Below, one piece after another: positions 4,038 to 49,375 of a stretch of 64,000 bases of DNA. The stretch comes from Kangiella sp. Its GTDB lineage: Bacteria > Pseudomonadota > Gammaproteobacteria > Enterobacterales > Kangiellaceae. The DNA lies in NCBI GenBank assembly GCA_048266925.1, contig JBLWYL010000001.1, positions 537,235-601,234 of the forward strand. Reading direction: 5' to 3'. The notes under the pieces are model-generated. The model did no database searches. It had not been told where the DNA came from and was given only the letters and a program-made list of their open reading frames with translations. Both the position numbers and the translations under genes were made by a program. How positions within the stretch are numbered: the stretch's first letter is position 1; every line of letters begins with the position of its first letter.

Positions 4038-4178
4038 TATATTCCCTAAAATATTATTTATATTAGAGTCCAAGGCAAGCTATACGCCTAGCTTTTATTA
4101 TGGCCTGTGAATACTTTCAACCAACTATATTGAGCTTGCCGCCATGTTGCAAGTTGATAGTAAGAGATAAGCTCTCTT

Positions 4179-4455
4179 GATGGGTTACGAAGCAAGCTTC
4201 TAACCCTTCCTATATTCTGATGAGACTCCCAGGAACCTTCTTCTTAAACCTTGTGAATTGCCTTTAAAATTTAACGATCAGTACTTTAACTGCCAAAACA
4301 GATTATCTACAGAGATTTCACCATAGGCGCTTCCTGCGGTCGCCCCTGCGGCTCACGCGGTTTGTAGAGACAACTTATAGGATGGGTTAGGCGTCAGCCG
4401 TAACCCATCAATCAAGCAACAAATGGGTTACGCTCAAAGAGCTAACCCATCCTAT
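4179..4455. repeat. Cluster of REP palindromes (ATAGGATGGGTT...AACCCATC family plus degenerate GTAG-type REPs)
   Basis: Copies at 4179-4213, 4377-4409 and 4423-4455; the last two form an inverted doublet. Same sequence family as the REPs flanking the RAYT at 41.4 kb. Confidence 0.85.
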
Positions 4456-11986: not shown

Positions 11987-14854
11987 ATGGATTATTTAAC
12001 AAGGAGTTACACTATGACACCATTTAGCAAATGGATAGTACCATCCTTTATCCTCCTTTTTAGTAGCACCCTATTCGCTTCTGAAAAGTATGACGGCTTA
12101 GTTCCCGTCGATGAAAATGGTAATGTCCAAGAATACCTGGAAACAGGTTCCTCCCTTACACTCGCCGCTTCTGGCTTAGAGAAAAATCGACTGTATGAAG
12201 TTCGACTTGGTATCGATACTGAGTATGTCGAGGACTATAGAGAAGCAGTCAGTTTCGCCCGCGTTAGCACCAATGCACGCGGTGAAATCCCTAACTTTAT
12301 TTTGTGGTATCACACCGGGGTTGTCGGCTGTTCTTATCGCTCAAAACAGGAGTTAGAACAACCCTTTGCTTTTCGTAGCTTCGAAGAAGCTCGTGAAAAA
12401 CTGGCAGGACGAAAGTTAGCGGTGAGCCTACACGAAGTTGAACGCGACGAATCAGGAAAGATTCCGCCGATGAAGCTCAGAGTTGGCAAACCCATTCAGC
12501 AACTTCATCTCCCGGTCATTCAAGACAAAAGACCACTCGTCTACCCATCCGATCGCGAAGCTTGCCTACACAACAGTATGCACAGCCAAAAGCAGGATCT
12601 GTTTATCTCGGGCAGCAACTTTGAGCCTGGCGAAAAACTACGGGTCTCACTGGTCCCCAACCAACGCCGTTGGACAGAAGGCGACCTGGTTAACGACATC
12701 ACCGGCGAATTCAGTGCCGCAGCTGCCGAATGGGTTGAAGCTGATGGCAACGGTGACTTTACCGTTCGCAGCTGGGATCGAGCGTTACAACGTCGCGGCG
12801 CATACGACATTATCGTCCAGCGCGAAGATCGCGAACTCGATTATGACCGTTTAGACTTGGCAGACCGCGTGTCGTACGGACAGGACACCGCCTTTGTGCT
12901 CTATCTCTACTACCCTCCGGGTGGCCCATTGATGGACATTGCAGGTCGTCAACTAACAGGCGGATTCCCCTACTTTGAATTTGCCGACTCATTCGCCGAC
13001 CAAAACGATGACGTTTGGGGCGCGGTTGACCCAACCTATGTTCAGGCAGGTCACGCTGGCGGTAATTACGCCGCTTACTATGTGGTCAATCACAGAAGCA
13101 CACCGCAATGGGATCCCGGCATGGGCGGTTCGACCAACCTGGTTGATGTTTCTGGCGGCATAGAAATTATGCGCGTCAAATCCGGTTGCATTAACGGCAC
13201 CGACACCATTATCTGGCACGCACCGCTGAACGAAGGCGAATATGATGTGGTGGTTGATTTCGGTTCGACGGTAGCCATGACTCCCGCACAGTACGTCTCA
13301 GACAACAACTACGACAGCAGCATTGATTTCCTCGATGGCTCAACGCAGATTGGCTTTATCGTAGCCGATGACCCATATGACTTAGGCAACTACGCCATTG
13401 GTGAATTCGAATACAGTTATGATGACTACTTTGCCACTATGGGCAATGCATCCGATGTCGACTTACGCGCTATCGTTCGCTATCCAGCAACAGTTGCCGG
13501 CACCAACACGCCAGTCGCCGCAGGTCAGCATCCGATATTCCTGATCCAACATGGTAACCACCGCGTGTGTGAAATATCAGTTCCACAACCACACCACGTT
13601 AATTGCCCGGTTAACCAACGGACGCCAAACCATGAAGGCTATATGCGTTTGCTGGAAACCTTAGCCAGTAATGGCGTGATTGCAGTATCCATTGATGCAT
13701 TCGATCTGAGCGGTTATGTCCCACAGTGGATTCCGGAGCGTGGTGAATTAATTCTGCGTCACATTGAGCTGTGGTCACACATGAACAACAGTGCGAGCTA
13801 TCCAAGCTATCCTGACCCCAGTTCCGGCTTATTCACCAACCATGTAGATATGAACAAAATTGCCGTCAGCGGTCACTCGCGTGGTGGCGAAGCTTCCGTT
13901 TCAGCCTATGTGCAAAATACTGCCTTTAACATTGTCGCAGTATCCTCCATTGCACCAACTGATCGTTATGACTTCAGCAACCCGCTCTACACCCTTGGCG
14001 ACATCCCATACTTTGTCATGCTGCCCGCAGCAGATGGCGATGTGTCGGATTTGCGAGGCATTCGTCTGTATGACCGAGCAGGAAGCACCGTCAGCGACAA
14101 CACCGTTAAAAGTGGTTTCCATCTATATGGCGCAAACCACAACTTCTTTAATACGGTGTGGGCATCGCACGGCGATGATGCATCCGCAGCAAGGCCACAG
14201 TACATTCCAGCAGCACAGCAACAACGTATTGGCGAAGCTTATCTCGCTGCCTTTAACCTGATTCACTTAAAAGGCGAATCAGTCTATCAAGACATGTTGC
14301 GCGGAAACTTAAGCTTTCCATCAACCGCTGGCGTCAACAACTACCACTTCCACCATGAAAAGATTCACCAAAAGGTCGAAGCAGGTTCAGACAACACCAG
14401 CAGCTCTTCTGGAGTGGTTAAGTCATCCGTCAATGGCCCATCAATCCACACAACGCAAGCGCTACAAGCAGCCTGGAACGCAAGCTCAGCCACCATGGAA
14501 TATTCGATTCCAGCAGGCCAGCAAGACGTATCCGGCTACGAAGTCCTATCCTTCCGGGTCGCTATGACCAACTCAGGCACTAACCCTGTCTCAGGAACTC
14601 AAGACTTCTATGTAGAGCTCGTCAGTGGTGCCAACCAGCGCTCGACACACGCCGCAAACTTTGACCAGATCCCAGTGCCTTATGATCGCCCAGCAAACGA
14701 TTATAATGTTATGACCACGGTCAGAATTCCGCTGCACTCATTCATCGTAAACAACTCCAATGTCGACCTAACTGACATTGACGTTATTCGATTCAAATTT
14801 AACAATCCATCACAAGGAGAGATCTATGTGGACGATATTGAATTCTCACGCTAA
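11987..14854 (+). CDS. Large secreted multidomain protein with C-terminal alpha/beta hydrolase
   Basis: Signal-like MTPFSKWIVPSFILLFSSTLFA (likely true start), oxyanion region LIQHGNH, nucleophile elbow GHSRGGEA, GANHNFFNTVW, beta-sandwich C-terminus. Confidence 0.75.
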   Translation: MDYLTRSYTMTPFSKWIVPSFILLFSSTLFASEKYDGLVPVDENGNVQEYLETGSSLTLAASGLEKNRLYEVRLGIDTEYVEDYREAVSFARVSTNARGEIPNFILWYHTGVVGCSYRSKQELEQPFAFRSFEEAREKLAGRKLAVSLHEVERDESGKIPPMKLRVGKPIQQLHLPVIQDKRPLVYPSDREACLHNSMHSQKQDLFISGSNFEPGEKLRVSLVPNQRRWTEGDLVNDITGEFSAAAAEWVEADGNGDFTVRSWDRALQRRGAYDIIVQREDRELDYDRLDLADRVSYGQDTAFVLYLYYPPGGPLMDIAGRQLTGGFPYFEFADSFADQNDDVWGAVDPTYVQAGHAGGNYAAYYVVNHRSTPQWDPGMGGSTNLVDVSGGIEIMRVKSGCINGTDTIIWHAPLNEGEYDVVVDFGSTVAMTPAQYVSDNNYDSSIDFLDGSTQIGFIVADDPYDLGNYAIGEFEYSYDDYFATMGNASDVDLRAIVRYPATVAGTNTPVAAGQHPIFLIQHGNHRVCEISVPQPHHVNCPVNQRTPNHEGYMRLLETLASNGVIAVSIDAFDLSGYVPQWIPERGELILRHIELWSHMNNSASYPSYPDPSSGLFTNHVDMNKIAVSGHSRGGEASVSAYVQNTAFNIVAVSSIAPTDRYDFSNPLYTLGDIPYFVMLPAADGDVSDLRGIRLYDRAGSTVSDNTVKSGFHLYGANHNFFNTVWASHGDDASAARPQYIPAAQQQRIGEAYLAAFNLIHLKGESVYQDMLRGNLSFPSTAGVNNYHFHHEKIHQKVEAGSDNTSSSSGVVKSSVNGPSIHTTQALQAAWNASSATMEYSIPAGQQDVSGYEVLSFRVAMTNSGTNPVSGTQDFYVELVSGANQRSTHAANFDQIPVPYDRPANDYNVMTTVRIPLHSFIVNNSNVDLTDIDVIRFKFNNPSQGEIYVDDIEFSR

Positions 14855-15299
14855 GAGCTTACTAGCAGGGATAGCTTTAAGTCTTATCGCCGCGACCAGC
14901 ATCGCCGCCGGCGACAGCCCAGACAAAAGAGCCGAACCTGCCAAAGGCAAAAGCGCCATAGACATCAAAACGGCACAAGTTGTTAAGCTCGACGCCAAAC
15001 AACAAGCCAATATTTATGGCAAAAGCTCAGTACGCAAACTCAAACAAGACGACCTGGTGATCAAAGTGGAAACACAAGAACCCGTCAACTTGTACCTGTC
15101 CAGTTCACCCATCATCACAGTGAACGGCAAAGAAGTACTGACCAAGTTTGAGCCACACCAAGCAACCACCTTCTACGCCTTCGTAGACAAAGAAATGCTT
15201 CAAAAAGGCACAAACTCAATCGACATGATCTGGCCTGATATGCCAGCAAGCGCCGAAACAAAAAGCAGGCGCCCTCAATATCAGCTAGAGATTAAATAA
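14826..15299 (+). CDS. Secreted hypothetical protein
   Basis: AAGGAG RBS before the ATG at 14826, overlapping the upstream stop; signal-like KSLLAGIALSLIAATSIAA. Confidence 0.65.
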   Translation: MWTILNSHAKSLLAGIALSLIAATSIAAGDSPDKRAEPAKGKSAIDIKTAQVVKLDAKQQANIYGKSSVRKLKQDDLVIKVETQEPVNLYLSSSPIITVNGKEVLTKFEPHQATTFYAFVDKEMLQKGTNSIDMIWPDMPASAETKSRRPQYQLEIK

Positions 15300-15308
15300 A
15301 TCCACCCC

Positions 15309-15343
15309 AAAAAAAAGCCCGCTCAAAAGCGGGCTTTCTTTTT
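15309..15343. terminator. Bidirectional intrinsic terminator
   Basis: A8-GCCCGCT-CAAA-AGCGGGC-TTTCTTTTT. Confidence 0.85.
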
Positions 15344-15378: not shown

Positions 15379-15433
15379 AAAAGAATCAAATCGGCGCTAA
15401 TAGTAAAGATATGAAGGAAAAGAAACTGCTGAC
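15379..15433. repeat. Second copy of the TonB receptor upstream segment
   Basis: AAAAGAATCAAATCGGCGCTAAT identical at 11646-11668 and 15379-15401, with about 30 more nt of similarity. Confidence 0.85.
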
Positions 15434-15509
15434 CAGTGCCAGCAGCGGACTGGTATTGACTTGACATCAGGAAGGCGTCCATATATGTCCAATAAGGCCT
15501 TTACCATTA

Positions 15510-15995
15510 CTAGAATTTAATGTCTAAGTTGTTGTTATCTAAATTCTCTTGTGATCTCTGCTCATTTAACAACGCCCGTTCAACAATTTTCTTTTCTAAC
15601 GTATCTATGCCTGTCGGATCTCCGGGGTTTTCATCCATCCAACTTTGAATAATTGATAAACCCGCGTTGCAATAGCCTTCAAATACCTTTACTGCATCAT
15701 TTAAATTTTCATACTTCAAACATGTAGCATCTTTCTTTTTTAATAGTGCTAGTAAATATATGTAGGTATCTTGTTGAGTATTGGCATAAGTGCCTAGCGT
15801 GATCTGGATTTTGTCAGAAGTTACTGACTCAAACTTATCGTGTGAGTAGCCAACCATAGCAGCAAATACCATTAAATCTTTATTGTGACTGAAAATAACA
15901 TGATCACCTTGAGTCAATTTTTCTACTAAAGGTTCATGCTTCCTATCTCGATTTACATTGATCCCTAGCCACTTTCTATCATCTAATCTAGACAT
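15510..15995 (-). CDS. DNA phosphorothioation-associated small protein (PbeD-like, dnd-associated protein 4 type)
   Basis: VNRDRKHEPLVEKL...IFSHNKDLMVFAAMVG pattern; last gene after the Rad50-like ATPase, overlapping its stop. Confidence 0.65.
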   Translation of the reverse strand: MSRLDDRKWLGINVNRDRKHEPLVEKLTQGDHVIFSHNKDLMVFAAMVGYSHDKFESVTSDKIQITLGTYANTQQDTYIYLLALLKKKDATCLKYENLNDAVKVFEGYCNAGLSIIQSWMDENPGDPTGIDTLEKKIVERALLNEQRSQENLDNNNLDIKF

Positions 15996-18021
15996 AAGCA
16001 CCTACCTTTTCTATTACAGTGCGATCAACTGGACAGTTATATTTAACAGTTGGGTATTTTGTCCCTTGAATTGTAATTTCATCCACTGCTTTAGCATCTC
16101 GATCAGCTTGAACTTCTAAAACAAGGTTATACTCCATTCCAACCTTATCCCTAATATTATCTTCAACAGTACCTTCCCAATGGCTAGAAGAAAGGAAAAA
16201 GACAACCTGACCTACAGACTCAGGAATTGATTTAGCAACATTTCCTTTGTATTTGTTATCAAGAACACCAAAAGGTGCATCAATGATAAAAGGCGCAATT
16301 GCTCCCGGCGTTAATATTTCACCAGAGGCATTTTTCCTTTCTCTCGCAAGTTCAATTAAAGAAGAAATAAATGTCAAACTTAAAAGTAACCCTTGTCCAT
16401 CACTTTCAGCTACTTGTACATCATTGCGGTCAAAGAGCCTTATATCAAAGGAGTTTTTATCCATTTTTGCACGGTAATCTTGACGTACAAACTGCCCTAG
16501 ATATGAGTTAACTTTTTCCATGATCTTTAACTCAACATTCTCCTGAGTTAATGCTAATGTTCTCTCGATTGTTAACTGAACTTTTTGAGCGATTTCTTCT
16601 AATTCTCGATATTTATTAACTTCCGAAGAGCTAGATTTAAGCCTTAATACTTCCCCCCTCTTCTTCTCAAGTAAAGATGCACTGTCTTTCACTTGTCGTT
16701 CTAAATTTCCTATAGCTCGATTGTCATCCCCTAAGCGCATTTGAAATTGACTTCTGCGCTTTTCAAGTTCTTGGATATCTCCAATATCTTTTGCACCTTG
16801 AATTTCAATAGAGATGTTTTTTAATCTTTCTTCAAATTTGCTGACATTATCTCGGCTAGAAGAAATACCTTTTAGATTAAACTCAAAGTCTTCCTTAGCC
16901 TGCGAAGAAATTTTTTTAATACTTCGTAACTCAGCTTGAGCTTTTGTTACCCTGCTTTCTTGTTGGGGATCTGCTGCCGATTTTAATAGATCTTGAATTC
17001 TATTATATGCCTCACTTCCAACTGTGATATCGGCTCCACAAATACACTGCGTTTCTTCTAAAATTTTATAAACGAGATTTTCGTTATACGGAGAAGGTAT
17101 AGTGGATTTAAACTCATCTTCATCGATAAAATTTAAAACCTCAAAAGATATATCATGGGCAAACACATTGGCCGCGTATTTTTTAATCAAGTTAACTCGA
17201 TTATTTTCGAATCTAGAAAGATTATTATGTGCATCTTTTAGATCTCGTTCAGCTTCAGCTCTTTCTTTATGCTTCGCTTTAATGAACTCACTATTTGAAG
17301 AGGCTAGCTGAGCATCAATTTTTCTAATTTCATAAGTATAACGTTCAACAGATTCGTTCTTTTCTTCGAGTCTCTTATTATCTTCTTGTAAATCTGATTC
17401 AAGCCGATCTATATCTCTTTGAATTTTTGATATTTCACCATCTTTATCAGCTCTTTGAAGAGATTTACTATACTCTTTCTTAATTTTTTGAACATCCTCT
17501 AAAGCGTTCTTTGCTACGGTGAAACCAAGGATCTTCTGAATTGCTTCTTTTATTTGTTTACCACCATGTTTACTCGTAAATGAACCAACACCCTCACCCT
17601 GGAAAAAGAAGTAATTAGCCATATCTTTAGGTATAACTGAATTTATAAATATGTCTGGATTAGAAACATCTTTAAAATCTCCACCTTCAATTATGAAGAC
17701 CCTAAAGGTGTCTTGAGTTACAGGGCCACATGCTCTTTGTACTGAATAATTTCTTCCTTCTTCTTCAAACTCAATTTCAACTTTGTAATTTTGCTTCCCT
17801 TCAGCTTTAGCTGCATTATTTATTAAACTTCTTGAATCTTTAAAGTTAGGGGTGAAAGTCTTGAAAAAACACCATAAAATTGCGTTTAATAGGGCTGTCT
17901 TACCAACTCCATTCTCTGCGTGAATTAGAGTGACATTTTTATCTTCATTAGTAGAAAAATGAATTGTTTGCTCACCATAGAATTGACGGAAATTTGTTAG
18001 TACTATTTTCTTTATTAGCAT
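15988..18021 (-). CDS. pbeC: Rad50/SMC-like ABC ATPase (PbeC/DndD-like)
   Basis: Walker A HAENGVGKT, long coiled coils with central CICG hook, signature AESDGQ, Walker B/D-loop IIDAPFGVLD. Confidence 0.75.
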   Translation of the reverse strand: MLIKKIVLTNFRQFYGEQTIHFSTNEDKNVTLIHAENGVGKTALLNAILWCFFKTFTPNFKDSRSLINNAAKAEGKQNYKVEIEFEEEGRNYSVQRACGPVTQDTFRVFIIEGGDFKDVSNPDIFINSVIPKDMANYFFFQGEGVGSFTSKHGGKQIKEAIQKILGFTVAKNALEDVQKIKKEYSKSLQRADKDGEISKIQRDIDRLESDLQEDNKRLEEKNESVERYTYEIRKIDAQLASSNSEFIKAKHKERAEAERDLKDAHNNLSRFENNRVNLIKKYAANVFAHDISFEVLNFIDEDEFKSTIPSPYNENLVYKILEETQCICGADITVGSEAYNRIQDLLKSAADPQQESRVTKAQAELRSIKKISSQAKEDFEFNLKGISSSRDNVSKFEERLKNISIEIQGAKDIGDIQELEKRRSQFQMRLGDDNRAIGNLERQVKDSASLLEKKRGEVLRLKSSSSEVNKYRELEEIAQKVQLTIERTLALTQENVELKIMEKVNSYLGQFVRQDYRAKMDKNSFDIRLFDRNDVQVAESDGQGLLLSLTFISSLIELARERKNASGEILTPGAIAPFIIDAPFGVLDNKYKGNVAKSIPESVGQVVFFLSSSHWEGTVEDNIRDKVGMEYNLVLEVQADRDAKAVDEITIQGTKYPTVKYNCPVDRTVIEKVGAYV

Positions 18022-18215
18022 ATGTCACCTTTTTTCCTTGCATTTTCTATAAGTTCACGTATCAATCGAAGTCGATTATTTGAACTTGCTTCTCCATAAA
18101 TATGCTTTCTTTCAACATTTATAATTGATGATGTAAGTTCCTGTAGAGGCGTAGGTTTCTCTACTTCCTTAGCGGCTTCCTGAAACATTCTTTCTAATTC
18201 AGATTTAGATGTCAT
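18015..18215 (-). CDS. Small helical protein (PbeB-like by position)
   Basis: 66 aa, overlaps both neighbours, lies between helicase and SMC ATPase. Confidence 0.6.
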   Translation of the reverse strand: MTSKSELERMFQEAAKEVEKPTPLQELTSSIINVERKHIYGEASSNNRLRLIRELIENARKKGDIC

Positions 18216-20385
18216 AATACAATCCTAGTTGTTCTAATTGCTTCTCAACTTGCAGCTTATTGTCAGCCAAAAGTAAAAAATCATTCACTCTTTCCATTTC
18301 AGCAGATATTAGTTTTTTTGACGCTGGTTGCTCAAAGTCAGAATTAGGCAATACTATAAAATCGTAGATAATGGCTTTTCTTTTGTTGGGGAATCGTCTT
18401 AAAACCCTACCCCTCCTTTGAACGTATTGCCGAGGGTTTCTAGTGCTAGAAAGTATTACAGCAGTTTGACATGCGGGAACATCAATACCTTCATCTAAAA
18501 CTTTCATAGCTACTAAAGCGTTAATGGCTTTATCTTTAAATGCTTCCATTACGTTTTTACGTTCAGCACTATTTATTGCGCTAGTAAATTGAGAAGTCTT
18601 CCATCCATTCTTATAAAGTATATCAGAAACTTGATCTATTACCTTACAATCATGTGAATCTTCATTCTGTTGAAATGGCTTCCCTTCTCCTGCATAAAAT
18701 AAAGTTAAGTTTCGCATTGACTCAGGAATCATAGCGCTTAGTTTATCCAACTTTTTTAATTTGTCAGAAGCCGAACCGAGCAGCCTACTTCGTTGACCAC
18801 AAAAAATAGTTAACTTCTCTTTGTCATCTTTACTTAGATGGCCACCGGATTTAGTAATAATTGAAGAGATTTTTTCCGATAATTCTTCAAAAGACTTCTG
18901 CTCTTCATCGTTTAGATAAACAGGAACCAAATGGTAATCATAAGGTGTTAATATTTCGTCATGAATTGCATCACCAAGTCCATACTCAGCGACAATGTCA
19001 CCGTAGTATGAGAGCAAATTCTCTCTAGATACATTAGGAAACATAGAATCAATTTCATCATCGTCACTCCTAAAAGGAGTTGCTGATAATCCCATTCTAA
19101 AATCTGAAAGTGGTAATAAGCTATTTACCTTATTTGAGCCGTGATTGTGGCACTCGTCACCAACAAACATCATGCTTTTAGGATTTACTAAAGATAATAC
19201 CTGTTGAAAATCATTTGAAACCAGAGTTCTATTTACCACTACCAAGCAAATGAAGTCTTTTATGCCAGCATTAAATGTTGCGATAGACTCTTTAATATTT
19301 GGCAACCAGCTATTTTTCGTGTTGTAACACTTGTGAGAGCTTATTCCAAAATTCAATAAGTTTTCAACCCATTGAGTTGCAAGCTCAATGTATGGAACAG
19401 CAATAACTAAACACAAACCTCTATTTTGGGTTTTAAGTGTTTCATATACTTTGACAGCACCATATATGGATGTAATGGTTTTACCAGAACCTGTTGCTAA
19501 TTTAAGGATTCCTTTGTAACCATTAGCTCTCCATTTATTTAAAGCCAATTTTTGATGGTCTTTAATTTTAAATTTATAACCATTTAAAAAAAACGGAATG
19601 TGAGGAGTACTTATTGAATTTGTGTTTGATTGCTCTGCCTCATGTTGTGTTATTAGTTCTTCAATTTTTTCAATGTCATGTAAAGATAACTTCTGAAGTT
19701 TAGGTGAACTTTCTACGTACTTAGATACTTCTGAATAAAAATCAGAACCAATATCGACCACAAACGTATTCTTTTGTTCGCTCTTCCAAAGTTTTTCAAA
19801 CCCTTGTTGATAGACATCACCATATGCTTCAAACAGCTCAGGCTCCCAACTTTTATAAACACTTATTGATTCAGCATTAAGATGTTCAAACATTCCTGAG
19901 GGGGTTTCATTAGCCGAGCCTTGAAAGACCACAACATCTCCATGGGAGTCATGAATGATGCCAATTTTTTCGTGGTACATACCTGCCCTTCTAAAAGCAA
20001 ACTTAATTTCTAAACGACCCGAAGCTATTAAGATGGCTAAGAGTTCTAGTCTTTGAGATACAACGTCCTTATCATTTTGTATCCAGCCTAATAAAGTATT
20101 CGTGTATTGATCTGATAACTCAGCAGGAGAACTAACGGCACAGCGAATTGCTTCAAACTCATCTTGCTCTAATGGATGCCCAATTATCAATCGCATTGTT
20201 CCTTTGGACTTAATTATTGAACTTAACCCACGGAGGTTTGCAGCTAGGATTTTTGAAGAAAAAAAGCCTACGGCACGATCGTAATTTATAGCTCTGGATA
20301 AAACTGGTTGATAGAAATCTTTAAAAAGATCGTCATCTCCTGTCCTATACACATGTTTCAGCTTTAATTCAGATAAGTTGCTCAT
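18205..20385 (-). CDS. pbeA: PLD-nuclease/SF2 helicase fusion (PbeA-like, phosphorothioation-system restriction enzyme type)
   Basis: N-terminal HEKIGIIHD...FQGSANET (PLD-like HxK/GSxN), Walker A LATGSGKT, DECH, SAT, LDEGIDVP, QRRGRVLR. Confidence 0.78.
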   Translation of the reverse strand: MSNLSELKLKHVYRTGDDDLFKDFYQPVLSRAINYDRAVGFFSSKILAANLRGLSSIIKSKGTMRLIIGHPLEQDEFEAIRCAVSSPAELSDQYTNTLLGWIQNDKDVVSQRLELLAILIASGRLEIKFAFRRAGMYHEKIGIIHDSHGDVVVFQGSANETPSGMFEHLNAESISVYKSWEPELFEAYGDVYQQGFEKLWKSEQKNTFVVDIGSDFYSEVSKYVESSPKLQKLSLHDIEKIEELITQHEAEQSNTNSISTPHIPFFLNGYKFKIKDHQKLALNKWRANGYKGILKLATGSGKTITSIYGAVKVYETLKTQNRGLCLVIAVPYIELATQWVENLLNFGISSHKCYNTKNSWLPNIKESIATFNAGIKDFICLVVVNRTLVSNDFQQVLSLVNPKSMMFVGDECHNHGSNKVNSLLPLSDFRMGLSATPFRSDDDEIDSMFPNVSRENLLSYYGDIVAEYGLGDAIHDEILTPYDYHLVPVYLNDEEQKSFEELSEKISSIITKSGGHLSKDDKEKLTIFCGQRSRLLGSASDKLKKLDKLSAMIPESMRNLTLFYAGEGKPFQQNEDSHDCKVIDQVSDILYKNGWKTSQFTSAINSAERKNVMEAFKDKAINALVAMKVLDEGIDVPACQTAVILSSTRNPRQYVQRRGRVLRRFPNKRKAIIYDFIVLPNSDFEQPASKKLISAEMERVNDFLLLADNKLQVEKQLEQLGLYYDI

Positions 20386-20402
20386 AACTTTATATTTTTT
20401 CT

Positions 20403-21287
20403 TTATAAACTACATATCAAACAAGACTGGTCTTCTGGGTCTTCATCTTCTTCGTTATATCGAAGCTCATCTTGCCATCTTTTATATTGTTTGGCTTTAA
20501 AAGTTCGGCCTTCTTTTTCTGCTTTTTCTGCTCTAGCTATTAACTCGTCAAGTGAACCCTGAGTGCTCCAGGTATACTCCCCATCTCCAACAGCTATTAA
20601 CCCCTCACCATATTGCCATTTTTTTCTAGAGCGGCCTTCAAAAGCTTTTGCTTTTTCATATAACTCTGGGTGGTTTCTTTTTAAGCCCAGCCATTCATCT
20701 TGTCTTTGGAAGAAGCAAAAATAACAACCGGACCTGCTTCTCCATTTATAGTATTCAGGTATTCCTACGCTATCCTCTAAAATTTGGAAAATGTCATCTC
20801 TGACTAAACCGTCATCTATGAAAGGATAAACAGCATCTACATCTTCGATGGTGTAATAATTTGGTTTTTTACCAACACCAGTATTCAAACCCTCACGAAA
20901 CTCATCGGCTCTGATACCAATATAACTAATTGCTGCTGTACCTTTTACAAAATCAACAAAAGGTTTGATTTTCATAACCCTTGTACACCAACGCTGACGT
21001 ACAGATGGCAGATAGTCGTTGTGGACCTTTAACCAGTGCTCGAAGTCTTCCCCAGAAGCAAGTCTATTAATTTCCTTACCAAGATAGGCTTCCATTTTAT
21101 CTAAAAACTCATAGACTTCTGGCAGCTCTGCACCAGTATCAGAGAAGAAATACTCCATTTTGGAGTGTAAATCTGGATAATGATTTTTAATATAGATTGC
21201 AAGTGCAGCACTATCCTTTCCCCCCGATAGTCCCAACACATGCCTAACATTTTCTTTTTTGGCTACTTCAGCAAAGTGTTCAGACAC
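20403..21287 (-). CDS. sspD: PAPS-reductase-fold ATP pyrophosphatase (SspD-like)
   Basis: PP-loop LSGGKDS, RWCT, SRSGCYFCFFQ and C-terminal CLIC Cys motifs; follows DUF4007 and the large ATPase. Confidence 0.75.
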   Translation of the reverse strand: MSEHFAEVAKKENVRHVLGLSGGKDSAALAIYIKNHYPDLHSKMEYFFSDTGAELPEVYEFLDKMEAYLGKEINRLASGEDFEHWLKVHNDYLPSVRQRWCTRVMKIKPFVDFVKGTAAISYIGIRADEFREGLNTGVGKKPNYYTIEDVDAVYPFIDDGLVRDDIFQILEDSVGIPEYYKWRSRSGCYFCFFQRQDEWLGLKRNHPELYEKAKAFEGRSRKKWQYGEGLIAVGDGEYTWSTQGSLDELIARAEKAEKEGRTFKAKQYKRWQDELRYNEEDEDPEDQSCLICSL

Positions 21288-24200
21288 TTAAGCCTCCTTG
21301 TTTTTAGAAACCATTACTTGACTTTGTTTTAATTTATTAGACTCTTTATACTCACTTAAAAAGTCATTTACAAGCTCAGCGACAACCGCAAGCTGCATCT
21401 CTTTATCATCGAGTTCTCTTAATTCTTCAAATATCTTATCTTTTGTCTTATGTATAGCTTGCGAACAATCTTTATTAATAGTCGCAACCTCATCTAACTC
21501 ACCCTGCCCTTTCTTGATGCTTCGTAACAGAATAACTTCAAAATCTTCCTTACCTGACTTGTTATTTATGTTGTGTTGCAGCCAGAGTTTGTGCAGGTCA
21601 TTAACCTGATTAGCATATTGTGCAAGACGATACTCAGCTTGACTTTGATCTGCATCTGACCATTTATCTATAGGTTTGTGTCCTAAGAATACGAACAGAC
21701 TTTCTAACCAGTTTTGGTCTGAATCAGAACGTTTTGCTAGACGCTTAAGGAATGCTTTTACTCCAGCAACATCAACTGTAAAGTCTTCTAAACCCGAGAC
21801 CTTCCCTGAAATATCAGCCCTTAACTCCTTCATTGATGAGAATTTATTGAAGCCTAAAGCATTAGCAAGTAAGCCAACTTCTCTGTCTTTTAATTTGTCG
21901 CAGGCGTATTTAAGCTCTCTAAAAACCTCCATGATTTTGTCGGTGAACCCATCAAAGTTTGTTTTAGCATCATCAACCTTATAGCTTAGTGCTTTTGGAA
22001 GTTCTTCGAAAAGCAACTTAATAGGAGATTTTGAAAGGTTAAAAGCTGTTCTAACAGCTATTGCTTCTTTGGAAAGTTGCTTAGTTTTCTTAGTGTAATC
22101 AGGTAGCTCTGCCATAAACTTAGCTAAAGGTTTGACTATGTCCAGAACAGTGCGTACTTCACCAGATTGTTTTTTACCATCTTCTGAATCGAAAAGACCC
22201 AAATTAAGCTCTGAGAAGATACTCTTCTTTACACCTTCAATTTTAAAGTATTGGATTTCAAACTCATCAGGCCTTTTTACAAAGCGCTCTATTTGATCAG
22301 CTCCTAAAGATGGAACAAAGCGCCTATTTTCATATATGGCTATTTCGTCTTTGTAAACAAGGCAAGCTGAAATGTAAAGTATGGGAAGTAAACCAGCTTT
22401 AACTCCGAATGGTGGCGCGACAAGGACTCTATCAAGTTCACCAAAAGACTTAGATTGTTTTTCTGTACTTTCAATAAACTCTTTGATTACCGTCCAGACT
22501 TTATGGAACTGTGTTTTCTTATGCTTTCTCCCATCAAGAGAGGGTTCGGTGAGCATCCATCCGCCTTTATAGTCCAGCGAGTGCAGACCTGAAGCCTTTA
22601 TCAATGAATTATATATTGCTTTTTCAGGTGGGTTCTTCTCTATCCCCAAATCCTTCAAATCGCTATGTGCTAGCATTGCTTGAAGCAACTTTCCTCGTGC
22701 AGCAACCGCCTGACTAGAAGGCTTATCCCTATTAATTAATTCATTATGAATTACTGGTGATGCGTGATATACGTTGTTAAGTACATTTGATAGCTGCTCC
22801 TGGAATTGGCGACGATTTCTAACTTGTAGCTTCTCCCCACTCCAATACCATTCAGATGACTCTGGAGAATCAATTAACTCTCTAAGGATCAGTTGCTCGG
22901 TTCTTTCTGCTGAATCCAATCGATCTTGATATTCACGCATTGCAACGGGATCTGAGTTAAGCTCCTGTTTGTTTATTCGTACTTTGTCTAAAGCTTCAAC
23001 CTCTGCAACGGCCTCTCTAAGAGATTCAGCATTTTTGCATATTGCAACAATATCTAGATCACCAAAGTAATTACGGACATGGGTTTCAAATAATGACTCA
23101 TCATCCTTACCCAAAGATAAGTAGAATAAAGCCCTAGGTTTATCATCATTCACATAAAGCTGCTTATAACTTTGCGCATCAATAAAGACAGGCATGAAGT
23201 ATCTAAGCGCTCCGCTTTCTATGGTGTAGCGTCTTGCTACAAGTGGCAAGAAATTTGCTCGTTCATTCAGTATTTCTGATAAAGAGAACTGACCTAAGTT
23301 AGACAATTCCTCTTGAAGAGATAGCTCTACATCAAAATCGCTACCCTGCCATACACGGTATTCTGAGCTAAACTTTCTAAATTGAACTACGGAGTGTTTC
23401 TCTAACGTTGCTATCGCGCTACTTAGCTTTGTTGTAGTTAAACACCCCAAGATTTCCTTTGATGCTTTTAAACCACCATGAGCACCAATGATATTTAATA
23501 AACCAATAGTTTTAAGTAAAGACATTTCTTCAACTGAAACATCCCCAACTCGTTCTATAGCTGTAATTACCTCAACCCACCTTCTATGTGTCAAATGGTC
23601 GCCAATTGATGCGGGTTGATTCATAATAAAGTAATCAAATATATGATGTGGCATCACATATTCGTCTACTGAATTGAAATCTTTTATTAAGCTCTTTAAT
23701 CCATTAGGTTCATGACTACCTAAAAAGCTAAATAGGGTTCTTTCATTCTGTGCAACTTTCTGACACAACATTGGCAGAAGCAATGCTGAAACTGGGTGCA
23801 ATGGATAACAACCTGAAAATAGGTCTACCGCACTATTTATGTCTAGTACTCCTGGTAATGCAGACTCTTTTTCTAAAACTTTAACAATGCTCTTTACCGA
23901 ACTATTTTTCGACTTAATTTCTTTGGTGCTAAATTTATGTTTAAAAGCCCGACTAACGACTCTTAATGTTTGTTCCGGCCCTTCTAAGAAAGGAATATCT
24001 TCAAATCGTCCTTGAATTTTGGCCCACTCTTTTTTTAATGACTCCCCTAAACCTTTTGCATATTGCTCAAATGACTGATGAAGCATGGCAAATAAATACA
24101 AATTAACTTTATTCTTACTGCAGGCGTGTTCAGCAAGAATTTGTAAAAGAAATATATCATTGACGCCATAATGTCTTGCTTCATACTCTAAAAACTTACC

Positions 24201-24782
24201 CAGCTCGTCAATTACAAGCAAAATGCCACTAGACTTTCCATCAAGCAGTCTTTGTAATTCTTTAATATAACCAAGTATTTCATTTGGGCTAACTTCTTGT
24301 TTATTGGTAGCTTTAGACAGCTCTTTTAAAAGCTTGGGCTTACGTGAGCTTGATTTCCAATAGAGATCTGCGGCGCTATGAAGACTTTGAACAAGTCTCT
24401 TTGAAAGAGGCTCCGGAGCACCGCTTAGCAATATCTTAAAAAAGCCTCTGGTCTTTTGATTTTCTCTTTTAAAGGCCGAAAGTAATTTTTTTTCTGAAGA
24501 CAAAACACTGTATGCAGCTTTGGTTGGAATTGAGCTGGGCTCTCCCACCAAGTGATTCAAGAAAATAGAGAAGGATGACTTGCCTGAACCATAAGGGCCA
24601 ATTAGTGACCAAGCTCTAGGTGCTTGCCTTTCTCCAAAAGCATCTACCACACGTTCTAATGTTCTTAGCGCTCTTGAGGTAGGGATATACGATTTAACAA
24701 CATCTGCTGAAGTTGCATCACGTTCAATATTAACTGAACGAGTGTAATGAGTATTCAATTCCACCTTTTCAATAATACTCAT
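21288..24782 (-). CDS. sspC: Large P-loop ATPase (SspC/BrxC-like)
   Basis: N-terminal YTRSVNIERD, Walker A GPYGSGKSS, Walker B LLVIDELGK, YPLHP; 4-nt overlap with the upstream gene. Confidence 0.75.
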   Translation of the reverse strand: MSIIEKVELNTHYTRSVNIERDATSADVVKSYIPTSRALRTLERVVDAFGERQAPRAWSLIGPYGSGKSSFSIFLNHLVGEPSSIPTKAAYSVLSSEKKLLSAFKRENQKTRGFFKILLSGAPEPLSKRLVQSLHSAADLYWKSSSRKPKLLKELSKATNKQEVSPNEILGYIKELQRLLDGKSSGILLVIDELGKFLEYEARHYGVNDIFLLQILAEHACSKNKVNLYLFAMLHQSFEQYAKGLGESLKKEWAKIQGRFEDIPFLEGPEQTLRVVSRAFKHKFSTKEIKSKNSSVKSIVKVLEKESALPGVLDINSAVDLFSGCYPLHPVSALLLPMLCQKVAQNERTLFSFLGSHEPNGLKSLIKDFNSVDEYVMPHHIFDYFIMNQPASIGDHLTHRRWVEVITAIERVGDVSVEEMSLLKTIGLLNIIGAHGGLKASKEILGCLTTTKLSSAIATLEKHSVVQFRKFSSEYRVWQGSDFDVELSLQEELSNLGQFSLSEILNERANFLPLVARRYTIESGALRYFMPVFIDAQSYKQLYVNDDKPRALFYLSLGKDDESLFETHVRNYFGDLDIVAICKNAESLREAVAEVEALDKVRINKQELNSDPVAMREYQDRLDSAERTEQLILRELIDSPESSEWYWSGEKLQVRNRRQFQEQLSNVLNNVYHASPVIHNELINRDKPSSQAVAARGKLLQAMLAHSDLKDLGIEKNPPEKAIYNSLIKASGLHSLDYKGGWMLTEPSLDGRKHKKTQFHKVWTVIKEFIESTEKQSKSFGELDRVLVAPPFGVKAGLLPILYISACLVYKDEIAIYENRRFVPSLGADQIERFVKRPDEFEIQYFKIEGVKKSIFSELNLGLFDSEDGKKQSGEVRTVLDIVKPLAKFMAELPDYTKKTKQLSKEAIAVRTAFNLSKSPIKLLFEELPKALSYKVDDAKTNFDGFTDKIMEVFRELKYACDKLKDREVGLLANALGFNKFSSMKELRADISGKVSGLEDFTVDVAGVKAFLKRLAKRSDSDQNWLESLFVFLGHKPIDKWSDADQSQAEYRLAQYANQVNDLHKLWLQHNINNKSGKEDFEVILLRSIKKGQGELDEVATINKDCSQAIHKTKDKIFEELRELDDKEMQLAVVAELVNDFLSEYKESNKLKQSQVMVSKNKEA

Positions 24783-25702
24783 GCTGCAACTCCTTTTACT
24801 GAACCCTTATAATGTTTAGCAATAAATTCTGAAGGACAAAGTTTATCATCAAGAATATAGACTTGATGTATTCCAGCTGTTTCGCGGATAGTAAGCTTGT
24901 TGGGGATGTAATTCACTAACTGCTCTAACTTTGTAACCAGTTCATTCTCGGTCATACGAAAAATAGCTCCAGGAGCAACATAAACATCTTTGGCATACAT
25001 TAAGTCTTCAATTGGTATTGAAGAAGTGCCTCTATTTATCATCAATGAAGTCACTGCATAACCAATCACACCTAATGGCAAATAACTTCTTTCATCTGGT
25101 TTAGAAATGTAATGTTTTGACGTTGAGCCAAGTTGAATCAACCTGAGTAAACTTAAAGGTGAGTCAAGTGCTTCTTCTATTGGTGCCTTGGTGTTTGCTT
25201 TAGATGGTGTATACATTCTAAGAACTAGCTGTGCATCATTCTTAACAGTTGTTGCACTTACTTTTGTTTCAATTTGATCCTTCACGTAATCACTCAAGGC
25301 CGTCTGCACCTCTTGAGAAGTAAATTCTGCTTTGTGGAATTTATTAAAGAACCAAAAGATTGAAGTAGCTTTTGACGGATTAGAAGCTAGTAGCCAATGT
25401 AATAACCAAATAGTAGCTTCATCTTCAAGATAAGGATCAACTCCATCATTATTATCAAAGATGAAGCTACCAATAGTGGTTGGTGTTGAAGATTTATCAT
25501 CGATGATTTGACATGCTGTAAGCCAATATTTAATAGCATTGACCATATTTCTACCGACACCCAGCTCAACGGTAGCTTCGTCTTTCTTAAATATGTCGGG
25601 GTCAGCTGTAAAAGCATTGTAACCTTTCGTTAACCAACCATACCGCAAAGCAAACGACTCATGTCTACCGAACGCAACTTCATTCTTTATTAGCTTCATC
25701 AC
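24779..25702 (-). CDS. sspB: DUF4007 family protein (SspB-like)
   Basis: FGRHESFALRYGWLTKG, LGVGRNMVNAIKYW and DPYLEDEATIWLLHWLLAS, all characteristic of DUF4007. Confidence 0.8.
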   Translation of the reverse strand: MMKLIKNEVAFGRHESFALRYGWLTKGYNAFTADPDIFKKDEATVELGVGRNMVNAIKYWLTACQIIDDKSSTPTTIGSFIFDNNDGVDPYLEDEATIWLLHWLLASNPSKATSIFWFFNKFHKAEFTSQEVQTALSDYVKDQIETKVSATTVKNDAQLVLRMYTPSKANTKAPIEEALDSPLSLLRLIQLGSTSKHYISKPDERSYLPLGVIGYAVTSLMINRGTSSIPIEDLMYAKDVYVAPGAIFRMTENELVTKLEQLVNYIPNKLTIRETAGIHQVYILDDKLCPSEFIAKHYKGSVKGVAA

Positions 25703-25885
25703 TTATGCTCTTTTTTCTGGGACTTCCAAGTCAAAAGAAAGCTGGTCTTTATTAAGCAGCTCTTGAGCTTGCTGTAAAAACCAGTCCTTCATATTTACAC
25801 CATCTTGTTTAAGTGCTTGATATAATTGTTTTTTTAATACTGGATCTATTTCTACAACTATACGACCACTATTTCCAACACTCAT
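25703..25885 (-). CDS. Small ribbon-helix-helix-like DNA-binding protein
   Basis: SGRIVVEIDPVLKKQLYQAL...MKDWFLQQAQELL (strand-helix-helix pattern); first gene of the operon, with its stop abutting the next start. Confidence 0.6.
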   Translation of the reverse strand: MSVGNSGRIVVEIDPVLKKQLYQALKQDGVNMKDWFLQQAQELLNKDQLSFDLEVPEKRA

Positions 25886-25901
25886 AAAACGCACCCTGAT
25901 C

Positions 25902-25931
25902 TATGTTACATAACAAGAAGAATGTAACATA
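25902..25931. promoter_or_regulatory. Inverted-repeat operator TATGTTACAT-N10-ATGTAACATA
   Basis: Perfect 10-bp inverted repeat directly upstream of the first operon gene. Confidence 0.65.
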
Positions 25932-26089
25932 AATTTATTAGGCTGCATAATACGCATTATGCATAGATTGACGACAGAATATGTCACCAATTGTTGATGA
26001 CATCAACACGGGTTTCGTTGTTAGGTCCCATTAAAGCCCATGTAAGAAATAGAGTATAGAAAGAAGTTAAAAAGATATATTCCAGGCAC

Positions 26090-26124: not shown

Positions 26125-26215
26125 TGGCGGAGAGGGTGGGATTTGAACCCACGGTGGGCTACAAACCCACGCCGGTTTTCAAGACCGGTGCATTCAGCCG
26201 CTCTGCCACCTCTCC
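26125..26215 (-). tRNA. tRNA-Ser(TGA)
   Basis: GGAGAGGTGGCAGAG...GGTCTTGAAAACC..., long variable arm, ...CCTCTCCGCCA. Confidence 0.97.
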
Positions 26216-49177: not shown

Positions 49178-49375
49178 AATAACTCCTTGAATAGATTTGA
49201 TTATTTGATGAGTATTAAGCCCCCCCTCCATCACTTTGTTTTTAGGTAGGTGATTTTCCTGAGCCACGATTTTATAACACAACCCTCTCAGATATACTGT
49301 AGAGACTTGTAGTTATTTGTAGCTATCTTGCTGCTAAGTTTATATATATTATTTATTCAAAAAGGAAAGCTAAAT

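What the first reader, a model, noticed from the sequence alone, without database searches (positions are those of the whole stretch)
15510..25931. Hybrid phosphorothioate defence operon: SspBCD-like writer coupled to a PbeABCD-like effector
Seen in sequence: eight co-oriented genes with overlapping or abutting stops and starts. The order is RHH, DUF4007, 1164-aa ATPase, PAPS-reductase fold, PLD/SF2 helicase, 66-aa protein, Rad50-like ATPase, 163-aa protein. Established knowledge: DUF4007+ATPase+PAPS-reductase is the SspBCD architecture (single-strand PT, normally paired with SspE or SspFGH). Helicase+small+SMC ATPase+small is the PbeABCD architecture, characterised with the double-strand DndCDEA writer in archaea. 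Inference: here a ssPT writer is paired with a Pbe effector, with no SspE, FGH, DndB/C/E or PglZ. This is not one of the experimentally characterised pairings I know of, though bioinformatic surveys may have listed it.
Basis: partly seen in the sequence, partly recalled or inferred. Interest (0 to 1): 0.9.

Follow-up and report, generated by a model that had tools for sequence, protein, structure and literature searches.

The report
SspBCD writer with PbeABCD effector operon
A marine Kangiella bacterium carries one eight-gene operon joining a DNA-sulfur-marking module (SspBCD) to a PbeABCD anti-virus module; this pairing has not been tested experimentally, but it is common in proteobacterial genomes rather than a one-off hybrid.

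Summary
Eight co-oriented minus-strand genes (25894-15510), overlapping or abutting, encode an RHH protein, SspB (DUF4007), SspC, SspD, PbeA (HKD nuclease plus SF2 helicase), PbeB, PbeC and PbeD. They form a low-GC island next to tRNA-Ser in a Kangiella-like chromosome. No SspA, SspE, SspFGH, DndC/D/E, PglZ or BrxL was found.

Of the 80 species-level PbeA loci I fetched, 44 have SspBCD within 10 kb, 23 have DndC, and most of the rest are truncated contigs. The window's PbeA sits in a gammaproteobacterial clade in which every locus with enough flank is Ssp-linked. Three loci that the 2019 Pbe paper listed without DndCD are Ssp-linked here.

Modules are shuffled. The Pbe cassette is 88% identical in DNA to one in Pseudoalteromonas, whose SspBCD is only 26-48% identical and points the other way.

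Refinements: PbeC is a CxC zinc-hook ABC ATPase, not Rad50. PbeD is dnd_assoc_4 with a weakly DndE-like fold. The RHH gene has a conserved operator.

I found no open-access paper naming or testing SspBCD-PbeABCD. Verdict: a real, probably functional phosphorothioate defence operon, a new variant of a known kind, of moderate interest.

The parts
25947..25974 (-). Promoter-like site for the operon (-35 TCGTCA, 16-nt spacer, -10 TATTAT)
   Evidence: Consensus scan. This is a pattern match only, and such matches were not enriched over shuffled sequence.
25899..25934 (.). Candidate operator between the promoter and the RHH start codon: two 9-bp palindromic sites ATGTWACAT (25903-25911 and 25922-25930), within a 13-nt inverted repeat
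   Evidence: repeats I1 and D1. The same ATGTAACAT/ATGTTACAT motif lies directly upstream of the RHH homologue in L079.
25703..25894 (-). 63-aa ribbon-helix-helix protein, the probable autoregulator of the operon
   Evidence: Weak RelB hit in Pfam (E=0.009). A 45%-identical homologue occupies the same position in L079. The operator motif is conserved.
24779..25702 (-). SspB (DUF4007), the DNA-recognition and nicking component of the phosphorothioate (PT) writer
   Evidence: PADLOC SspB 5e-90 and Pfam DUF4007 3e-80.
21288..24782 (-). SspC, a 1164-aa ATPase related to BrxC, with Walker A GPYGSGKS at residues 62-69
   Evidence: PADLOC SspC E=0 (1383 bits) against BrxC 9e-146. Motif found.
20403..21287 (-). 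SspD, a PAPS-reductase-fold sulfurtransferase with PP-loop SGGKDS at residues 21-26 and Cys101/188/191/289/292
   Evidence: PADLOC SspD 2.8e-95 and Pfam PAPS_reduct 1.5e-10. Motifs found.
18205..20385 (-). PbeA, an N-terminal HKD (PLD) nuclease fused to an SF2 helicase. Motifs: H138-x-K140...D146...GSxN159; Walker A GSGKT 299-303; DECH 410-413
   Evidence: PADLOC PbeA 3e-250 and TIGR04095 4.8e-124. The motif residues are invariant across 16 homologues.
18015..18215 (-). PbeB, a 66-aa protein translationally coupled to PbeA and PbeC
   Evidence: No HMM hit. It is 80-95% identical to the equivalent ORF in L001-L003. A 40-110-aa ORF ends at the PbeC start in 73 of 78 loci and shares a core motif (IER..YG...R..IRE.I).
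15988..18021 (-). PbeC, a CxC zinc-hook ABC ATPase and sister of DndD, with C326-I-C328 at the coiled-coil apex
   Evidence: PADLOC PbeC 2.7e-278 and TIGR03185 DndD 1.8e-39. A mid-protein CxC is present in every full-length PbeC inspected and in none of the DndD copies.
15510..16001 (-). PbeD, a dnd_assoc_4 protein and probable DndE cognate
   Evidence: TIGR04062 1.4e-18, which is 67.4 bits against a cut-off of 74.25. All 39 family members tested match TIGR04062. The AF2 model has pLDDT 80.8, and its top PDB fold hits are DndE 5wtu/4lrv, but E is 0.7-3.
15425..15446 (-). Intrinsic-terminator-like hairpin plus T-run, 64 nt after the PbeD stop codon
15350..26118 (.). Low-GC island holding only this operon. 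It lies between the terminator of a chromosomal gene (15314-15337) and the 3' side of tRNA-Ser(tga) (26125-26215). No integrase or att repeats are present.

Best explanation
This is a single-operon, phosphorothioate (PT)-based, restriction-modification-like defence system in a Kangiella-like marine gammaproteobacterium.

Proposed mechanism:
1. Regulation (inferred). The RHH protein represses the operon by binding two ATGTWACAT palindromes just downstream of the promoter.
2. Writing (inferred from homology). No SspA is encoded, so a housekeeping cysteine desulfurase (IscS) supplies sulfur to SspD. SspB and SspC select and prepare sites, and PT is installed on host DNA. Characterised Ssp systems write on one strand at 5'-CpsCA-3'. 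The motif and strandedness here are unknown.
3. Effector (inferred). PbeB, PbeC and PbeD scan DNA, and the PbeA HKD-nuclease/SF2-helicase acts on DNA lacking the PT mark, blocking phage replication. PbeC is a CxC zinc-hook ABC ATPase and PbeD looks like DndE.

What is shown here: the gene identities, intact catalytic motifs, operon structure, and a widespread, clade-wide conserved linkage of SspBCD with PbeABCD.

What is inferred: the presence of PT, the dependence of Pbe on PT, and anti-phage activity.
For: - Family assignments are strong, and catalytic motifs are intact.
- The eight genes are translationally coupled, with one promoter-like site and one terminator.
- SspBCD lies within 10 kb of PbeA in 44 of 80 species-level loci, in at least four gene arrangements. 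33 of those 44 have no SspE.
- The window's PbeA belongs to a gammaproteobacterial clade in which every locus with enough flank is Ssp-linked. A second Ssp-linked clade, in alphaproteobacteria, is nested among Dnd-linked ones.
- The same unit sits on a conjugative Rhizobium plasmid and next to an integrase in Pseudoalteromonas.
- PbeABCD activity is PT-dependent in the characterised archaeal system (PMC6459918).
- sspBCD without sspA works with IscS (PMC8092258).
- The operator motif is conserved with L079.
Against: - No experimental data exist for this locus, and no sequencing runs were usable.
- The Pbe cassette has been exchanged between very different SspBCD modules. This argues against tight writer-effector co-adaptation and is compatible with the two modules being independent.
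- Rakesh, Aravind and Krishnan (PMC10853773) question whether Pbe is a PT-dependent restriction module at all. They note that CxC systems occur without PT writers.
- The archaeal system showed no DNA cleavage despite the HKD domain.
- The window's SspBCD is only 23-35% (SspB, SspC) to 40-50% (SspD) identical to most other Ssp modules examined, so its motif and strandedness cannot be assumed.
Confidence: 0.7

Rival explanations
1. Two independent systems that merely share a defence island. SspBCD would be an 'orphan' epigenetic PT writer. PbeABCD would be a self-contained CxC-ABC-anchored defence system that does not read PT.
For: - The Pbe cassette (88% nt identity to L001) is combined with unrelated SspBCD modules.
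- PMC10853773 reports CxC systems without any PT writer.
- L055 and L059 have full flanks but no writer within 10 kb.
- PMC8092258 considers bona fide orphan SspBCD possible.
Against: - A 17-nt gap and translational coupling place both modules in one operon.
- Linkage is seen in 44 of 80 species, across several arrangements and clade-wide. That is far more than defence-island co-location predicts for two specific modules.
- The characterised Pbe system is PT-dependent (PMC6459918).
Confidence: 0.15
2. Pbe is a backup or abortive-infection effector that guards the PT writer. PbeB would hold the PbeA nuclease in check, and phage interference with PT writing or with PbeB would release PbeA against the cell's own DNA.
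For: - PMC10853773 proposes PbeB as a negative regulator released by viral enzymes.
- PbeB is conserved at the PbeC start in 73 of 78 loci.
- 11 of 44 Ssp-Pbe loci also carry SspE, so Pbe could be a second layer.
Against: - In the archaeal system, PT-modified virus escaped, and protection behaved like self/non-self discrimination (PMC6459918).
- 33 of 44 Ssp-Pbe loci have no other PT-linked effector.
Confidence: 0.1
3. The locus is a reduced BREX type 4 or SspFGH-type system that has been mis-assigned.
For: SspB, SspC and SspD are homologous to BrxP and BrxC, with weaker PADLOC hits: BrxC 9e-146 and BrxP about 1e-11.
Against: - Ssp models score far higher (SspC 1383 bits).
- No PglZ, BrxL, BrxA/B or SspF/G/H hits appear in the operon or its flanks.
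- PbeA and PbeC match the Pbe models at E of 1e-250 or below.
Confidence: 0.02

Closest known systems
DndCDEA-PbeABCD of haloarchaea (Haloterrigena jeotgali A29; Xiong et al. 2019, PMC6459918)
   Same: The four-gene effector is the same: a PbeA HKD-SF2 helicase, a small PbeB, the PbeC CxC ABC ATPase, and PbeD (dnd_assoc_4). It is also adjacent to a PT writer.
   Different: The writer here is SspBCD (DUF4007, a BrxC-like ATPase and a short PAPS reductase) rather than DndC/D/E/A. The host is a bacterium. The whole system is a single operon fronted by an RHH gene. No cysteine desulfurase is encoded.
SspABCD-SspE (Vibrio cyclitrophicus FF75, E. coli 3234/A; Xiong et al. 2020)
   Same: The SspB, SspC and SspD writer families are the same.
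   Different: There is no SspE (DUF262-DUF1524) and no SspA. SspE does co-occur with Pbe in 11 of 44 related loci (for example Vibrio halioticoli and Citrobacter pasteurii), but not here.
IscS-SspBCD-SspFGH (Vibrio anguillarum FF-93; Wang et al. 2021, PMC8092258)
   Same: An SspBCD writer without SspA that relies on IscS, coupled to a multi-gene effector acting on DNA that lacks PT.
   Different: The effector families are unrelated. No SspF, SspG or SspH hits were found.
CxC ABC-ATPase/DndE-anchored conflict systems (Rakesh, Aravind & Krishnan 2024, PMC10853773)
   Same: PbeC has the defining mid-coiled-coil CxC. PbeD has a weakly DndE-like fold. An HKD-SF2 effector and a small protein are present.
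   Different: The text I searched from that paper describes coupling to Dnd genes or methylases, or no writer at all. I found no statement there of coupling to SspBCD.
BREX type 4 (BrxP/BrxC PT writer with PglZ and BrxL; PMC12914056, PMC12839542)
   Same: The writer proteins are homologous (BrxC to SspC; BrxP to SspD plus SspB).
   Different: PglZ, BrxL, BrxA and BrxB are absent. SspB and SspD are separate proteins. The effector is Pbe.

Membership tests
SspBCD phosphorothioate (PT) writer | SspB (DUF4007) present | tested here: met
   PADLOC SspB 5e-90 and Pfam DUF4007 3e-80, full length.
SspBCD phosphorothioate (PT) writer | SspC large ATPase with a Walker A motif | tested here: met
   PADLOC SspC E=0, covering 1-1066 of 1064 model positions. 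GPYGSGKS at residues 62-69.
SspBCD phosphorothioate (PT) writer | SspD PAPS-reductase fold with a PP-loop | tested here: met
   PADLOC SspD 2.8e-95 and PAPS_reduct 1.5e-10. SGGKDS at residues 21-26.
SspBCD phosphorothioate (PT) writer | Dedicated cysteine desulfurase SspA in the cluster | tested here: not met
   tblastn with two SspA-like seeds finds nothing in the 64-kb window. 37 of 44 related Ssp-Pbe loci do carry one. SspA is known to be replaceable by IscS (PMC8092258), so this does not exclude membership.
SspBCD phosphorothioate (PT) writer | Single-strand PT (for example 5'-CpsCA-3') in genomic DNA | not testable with these tools
   This needs LC-MS/MS and iodine-cleavage or SMRT mapping.
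PbeABCD effector | PbeA: an HKD/PLD nuclease fused to an SF2 helicase | tested here: met
   PADLOC PbeA 3e-250, TIGR04095, PLDc_2, ResIII and Helicase_C. HKD, Walker A and DECH residues are invariant.
PbeABCD effector | PbeB: a small protein immediately upstream of PbeC | tested here: met
   The 66-aa ORF overlaps both neighbours. Homologues are found in relatives at up to 95% identity. The positional ORF is conserved in 73 of 78 loci. No library HMM matches it.
PbeABCD effector | PbeC: a CxC zinc-hook ABC ATPase | tested here: met
   PADLOC PbeC 2.7e-278. C326-I-C328 is present, the motif is found in every full-length PbeC inspected, and it is absent from every DndD.
PbeABCD effector | PbeD: dnd_assoc_4, the DndE cognate | tested here: inconclusive
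   TIGR04062 at 1.4e-18, but 67.4 bits is below the 74.25 cut-off. All 39 family members tested match it. The top PDB fold hits are DndE, but E is 0.7-3 with TM 0.54-0.62 by target. A profile search of PDB sequences gave no hit.
PbeABCD effector | PT-dependent block of virus replication | not testable with these tools
   This requires phage assays with and without the writer.
DndCDEA-PbeABCD (the characterised pairing) | A DndC/DndD/DndE writer adjacent to Pbe | tested here: not met
   No DndC, DndD or DndE is in the window. DndC is found in 23 of 80 other Pbe loci.
SspBCD-SspE | SspE (DUF262-DUF1524) adjacent | tested here: not met
   None of the operon genes or the adjacent flanking genes scanned is SspE-like; the remainder of the window was scanned with Pfam only and showed no DUF262 or DUF1524 hit. 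SspE was verified in other loci with E=0.
BREX type 4 | PglZ and BrxL together with a BrxP-BrxC writer | tested here: not met
   Only weak BrxC and BrxP cross-hits to SspC, SspB and SspD appear, and there is no PglZ or BrxL. The flanks are housekeeping genes.

The most novel reading that the evidence does not exclude
PbeABCD may be a writer-agnostic reader of backbone phosphorothioate (PT).

Essentially the same Pbe cassette (88% nt identity) is found with SspBCD modules that are only 26-48% identical. Other Pbe lineages pair with DndCDE. So Pbe would discriminate self from non-self through the PT mark itself, or its density. It would not rely on a motif matched to its writer or on protein contacts with it, and it would work with both single-strand and double-strand PT.

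A corollary follows. Much of the unexplained class of 320 of 553 'solitary pbeAC' loci from 2019 would in fact be Ssp-linked. Likewise, part of the 84% of sspBCD that lack SspE or SspFGH would have Pbe as the missing effector.
Probability: 0.3. Interest if true: 0.6.

Novelty: new variant of a known kind. Interest (0 to 1): 0.45.

Why it matters
Two published puzzles in phosphorothioate (PT) biology may answer each other.
- Most sspBCD clusters have no known restriction partner (83.9% in PMC8092258).
- Most pbeAC clusters were reported without a Dnd writer (320 of 553 in PMC6459918).

The census made here shows that SspBCD and PbeABCD are frequently each other's neighbours, including at three loci that the 2019 paper scored as lacking DndCD.

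If the pairing works, it would be a fourth PT-based defence architecture. It would also show that one effector family can read marks written by two non-homologous machineries, possibly on one strand or on both. The natural cassette swaps offer ready-made experiments on writer-effector specificity.

It is not a new principle, since every component family is already known.

Tried and rejected
- **Sequencing runs.** I looked for runs holding the locus, to test operon transcription. Only one soil metagenome held 7% of the words, so this was unusable.
- **Island borders.** I searched for att-like direct or inverted repeats at the borders and for an integrase. None was found, so the mobility mechanism of this copy is unknown.
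- **PbeD against solved structures.** A profile search of PDB sequences gave no hit, so the DndE link rests only on a weak fold match.
- **PbeB and PbeD in PADLOC.** Neither protein hit any PADLOC model.
- **Literature.** Xiong et al. 2020 (Nat Microbiol) is not held. I therefore cannot exclude that Ssp-Pbe adjacency is mentioned there or in other subscription papers.
- **BREX type 4 and SspFGH readings.** Both were considered and rejected on the HMM evidence.
- **Promoter-like matches.** They were fewer than in shuffled sequence (18 against 33.7), so the promoter call is only positional.
Full report
**Observation**

The window holds eight co-oriented minus-strand ORFs between 25894 and 15510. 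Their sizes are 63, 307, 1164, 294, 726, 66, 677 and 163 aa. Seven of the eight start or stop junctions abut or overlap, and the only gap is 17 nt between the fourth and fifth genes. The block has GC 0.35-0.38 against 0.45-0.51 on either side.

It sits directly 3' of tRNA-Ser(tga) at 26125-26215, which follows tRNA-Pro and the thrS-infC-rpmI-rplT-pheST-ihfA-merR cluster. On the other side is the terminator of a chromosomal gene at 15314-15337. PheS falls in a 90%-identity cluster made of Kangiella proteins, so the host is a Kangiella-like marine gammaproteobacterium. The rest of the window is ordinary chromosome.

**Gene identities**

- SspB: 5e-90; DUF4007 at 3e-80.
- SspC: E=0, 1383 bits, against BrxC at 9e-146.
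- SspD: 2.8e-95; PAPS_reduct.
- PbeA: 3e-250; TIGR04095 'DNA phosphorothioation system restriction enzyme'; PLDc_2 plus ResIII and Helicase_C.
- PbeC: 2.7e-278; DndD-like.
- The last gene: TIGR04062 dnd_assoc_4 at 1.4e-18, slightly under the curated cut-off.
- The 63-aa protein: only a weak RelB/RHH hit.
- The 66-aa protein: no HMM hit.

Catalytic motifs are intact:
- PbeA has H138-x-K140...D146...GSxN159, Walker A GSGKT and DECH, all invariant in 16 homologues.
- SspC has Walker A GPYGSGKS, and SspD has the PP-loop SGGKDS and five cysteines.
- PbeC has C326-I-C328 in mid-protein.

That CxC is present in every full-length PbeC from the fetched loci and in none of the DndD copies. This matches the 'CxC zinc-hook ABC ATPase' of Rakesh, Aravind and Krishnan (PMC10853773). 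'Rad50-like' is therefore only approximately right.

For PbeD I built an AF2 model from 35 homologues (pLDDT 80.8, pTM 0.78). Its best PDB fold matches are DndE (5wtu, 4lrv). The scores are not significant (E 0.7-3, TM 0.54-0.62 by target), and a sequence profile finds nothing in the PDB. The DndE-cognate idea is supported only weakly.

**What is absent**

There is no SspE, SspFGH, DndB/C/D/E, PglZ or BrxL. No class-V aminotransferase (SspA or IscS-like) and no integrase occurs anywhere in the 64 kb. No att-like repeats flank the island.

**Regulation**

A promoter-like site lies at 25974-25947. It is followed by two copies of a 9-bp palindrome, ATGTWACAT, at 25903-25911 and 25922-25930, just before the RHH start codon. 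The closest co-linear relative is L079, an Oleiphilaceae MAG. It has an RHH homologue (45% identity) in the same position, and the sequence CATGTAACATAACATCTATATGTTATGTTACATG lies immediately upstream of it.

Conservation of both the motif and the gene suggests that the RHH protein autoregulates the operon, but this is an inference. A terminator-like hairpin follows PbeD at 15446-15425.

**How common is the pairing?**

A scan of one genome per species with a PbeA alignment gave 296 relatives. I fetched the best 80 with 10-kb flanks. Using the window's proteins as queries, plus PADLOC-verified DndC, DndD and SspE seeds, the loci divide as follows:
- 44 of 80 have SspBCD within 10 kb of PbeA.
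- 23 of 80 have DndC.
- 13 have neither. Ten of these are truncated contigs, and one more has Dnd at its edge.

The sample is biased toward relatives of the query, so these are not global frequencies.

The arrangements vary:
- Divergent SspDCB and PbeABCD.
- Co-oriented, as in the window (L011, L066, L079).
- SspBCD-SspE-PbeABCD in Vibrio, Photobacterium, Citrobacter and Moraxella. SspE is present in 11 of the 44.
- An alphaproteobacterial form, PbeB-C-D-A convergent with SspABCD, which is also found on a conjugative Rhizobium plasmid. There PGAP gives the genes only generic names.

In a neighbour-joining tree of PbeA, the window lies in a gammaproteobacterial clade in which every locus with enough flank is Ssp-linked. 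The alphaproteobacterial Ssp-linked clade is nested among Dnd-linked ones. This implies at least two writer switches followed by long-term retention.

**Module shuffling**

Three loci carry PbeABCD proteins 75-95% identical to the window's, but SspBCD proteins only 23-48% identical and on the opposite strand. They are L001 (Pseudoalteromonas sp. 0303), L002 (Neptunicella) and L003 (Alteromonas oceani). DNA similarity to L001 (88%) and L002 (86%) runs from 27 nt inside PbeA to about 20 nt before the PbeD stop, and nowhere else.

Conversely, the window's SspBCD is closest to L079, L066 and L077 (43-66%). Their Pbe modules belong to other lineages (39-56%). That SspBCD sub-clade also lacks SspA, whereas 37 of 44 Ssp-Pbe loci carry one. 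L001 additionally has a tyrosine integrase and SspA next to its Ssp genes.

**Literature**

- PbeABCD was characterised with DndCDEA in haloarchaea. Of 553 pbeAC loci, 320 were called solitary because they lacked dndCD (PMC6459918). Ssp was unknown at the time.
- Wang et al. found 83.9% of 2,678 sspBCD without SspE or SspFGH, and suggested that further partners exist (PMC8092258).
- A human-microbiome survey tabulated strains with 'PT-modifying genes plus pbeA-D', including about 10% of Vibrio, without separating Ssp from Dnd (PMC7464106).
- PADLOC had a catch-all 'PT_other' model (PMC9252829).
- Reviews and the Rakesh/Aravind/Krishnan reappraisals list Pbe only with Dnd, with methylases, or alone (PMC10853773, PMC12707154, PMC12839542, PMC13223576).

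I found no open-access text that names or tests SspBCD-PbeABCD. The 2020 Ssp paper could not be read.

I then cross-checked the 2019 supplementary table. Thioclava marina NZ_MPZS01000002.1 and Novosphingobium sp. PC22D NZ_MWMO01000002.1 are scored there as lacking DndC, DndD and a methyltransferase. Vibrio halioticoli NZ_BAUJ01000010.1 is scored as lacking DndCD. These are my loci L056, L064 and L018, and all three are Ssp-linked. A locus that the table scores as Dnd-linked (NOR5-3, L032) is Dnd-linked in my census too.

**Interpretation**

The most likely reading is a functional PT-based defence operon. The RHH protein regulates it. IscS, SspD, SspB and SspC write PT. The PbeBCD scanning complex, together with the PbeA nuclease-helicase, acts on unmarked DNA. 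This rests on homology, intact motifs, operon structure and strong conserved linkage. The chemistry and the phenotype are untested here.

The main rival is that the two modules are functionally independent neighbours. The cassette swaps and the published doubts about Pbe's PT dependence favour that view. The clade-wide linkage and single-operon organisation argue against it.

**Verdict**

The finding is real and correctly read, but it is a common natural architecture rather than a singular hybrid. It is a new variant of a known kind. Its value lies in linking two published 'orphan' classes and in raising a testable question about writer-agnostic PT reading.

Noticed in passing
window 25899-25934; L079 about 4235-4270: Two ATGTWACAT palindromes lie upstream of the RHH gene. 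The same motif forms a longer palindrome upstream of the RHH homologue in the Oleiphilaceae MAG locus L079. This is a candidate conserved operator for an Ssp-Pbe regulator.
   Followed up: partly
window 15532-20358 compared with L001 10028-14851 and L002 10019-14830: The Pbe cassette alone is 86-88% identical in DNA to cassettes in Pseudoalteromonas sp. 0303 and a Neptunicella MAG. The adjacent SspBCD genes there are unrelated at DNA level and divergently oriented. The recombination breakpoints lie at the edges of the Pbe genes.
   Followed up: yes
L001-L080, immediately upstream of PbeC; window 18015-18215: PbeB is not merely a variable disordered peptide. A 40-110-aa ORF ends at the PbeC start in 73 of 78 loci and shares a core motif (..IER..YG...R..IRE.I). 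The gene order is either A-B-C-D or the circular permutation B-C-D-A, so B-C-D is the conserved trio.
   Followed up: partly
L018, L021, L022, L024, L026, L078, L009, L062, L065, L007, L058: Eleven Ssp-Pbe loci also encode SspE. In Vibrio, Photobacterium and Citrobacter it usually lies between SspB and PbeA, so one writer is flanked by two different effectors.
   Followed up: partly
L056, L064, L018 (Xiong 2019 supplementary file 6): Loci that the 2019 Pbe paper scored as PbeAC without DndC/DndD (Thioclava marina, Novosphingobium sp. PC22D, Vibrio halioticoli) have SspBCD 50 bp to 2.6 kb away. At least part of the 'solitary pbeAC' class is therefore Ssp-linked.
   Followed up: partly
L081 (Rhizobium indigoferae plasmid NZ_CP140639.1, 253328-275454): A conjugative (MOBQ, MPF_T) plasmid carries a small ORF followed by PbeC-PbeD-PbeA, convergent with SspA-SspB-SspC-SspD and next to an IS630 transposase. 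RefSeq names the genes only generically.
   Followed up: no
L001 1856-4296: In Pseudoalteromonas sp. 0303, a tyrosine integrase and an SspA-like cysteine desulfurase lie next to SspDCB-PbeABCD. The Kangiella copy has neither, although it sits beside tRNA-Ser.
   Followed up: partly
L056 12238-14132: In Thioclava marina, the 2-kb gap between PbeA and SspD holds a SIR2/ThsA-like protein and a DUF262/NsnA-like protein. This may be another defence pair embedded in the Ssp-Pbe locus.
   Followed up: no
window 3-4079 (minus strand): A reading frame of at least 1359 aa runs off the left end of the window. It has alpha-2-macroglobulin domains (MG2, A2M_BRD, A2M) and a signal-peptide-like N-terminus, and lies in a low-GC stretch (0.35-0.40).
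   Followed up: partly
window 11987-15299: A 955-aa and a 173-aa protein next to the island have no Pfam hit. They lie downstream of a TonB-dependent receptor gene (9541-11634).
   Followed up: no
window 41404-41946 and 44582-49282: An IS200/Y1-transposase-like gene lies near a 1566-aa protein with CarboxypepD_reg and Calx-beta domains, next to a second TonB-dependent receptor.
   Followed up: no
P0121-P0240: The precomputed annotation assigns all PbeD homologues to a Pfam family, PF27807.1. The local Pfam copy did not report this family, so a dedicated model for dnd_assoc_4/PbeD seems to exist in a newer release.
   Followed up: no
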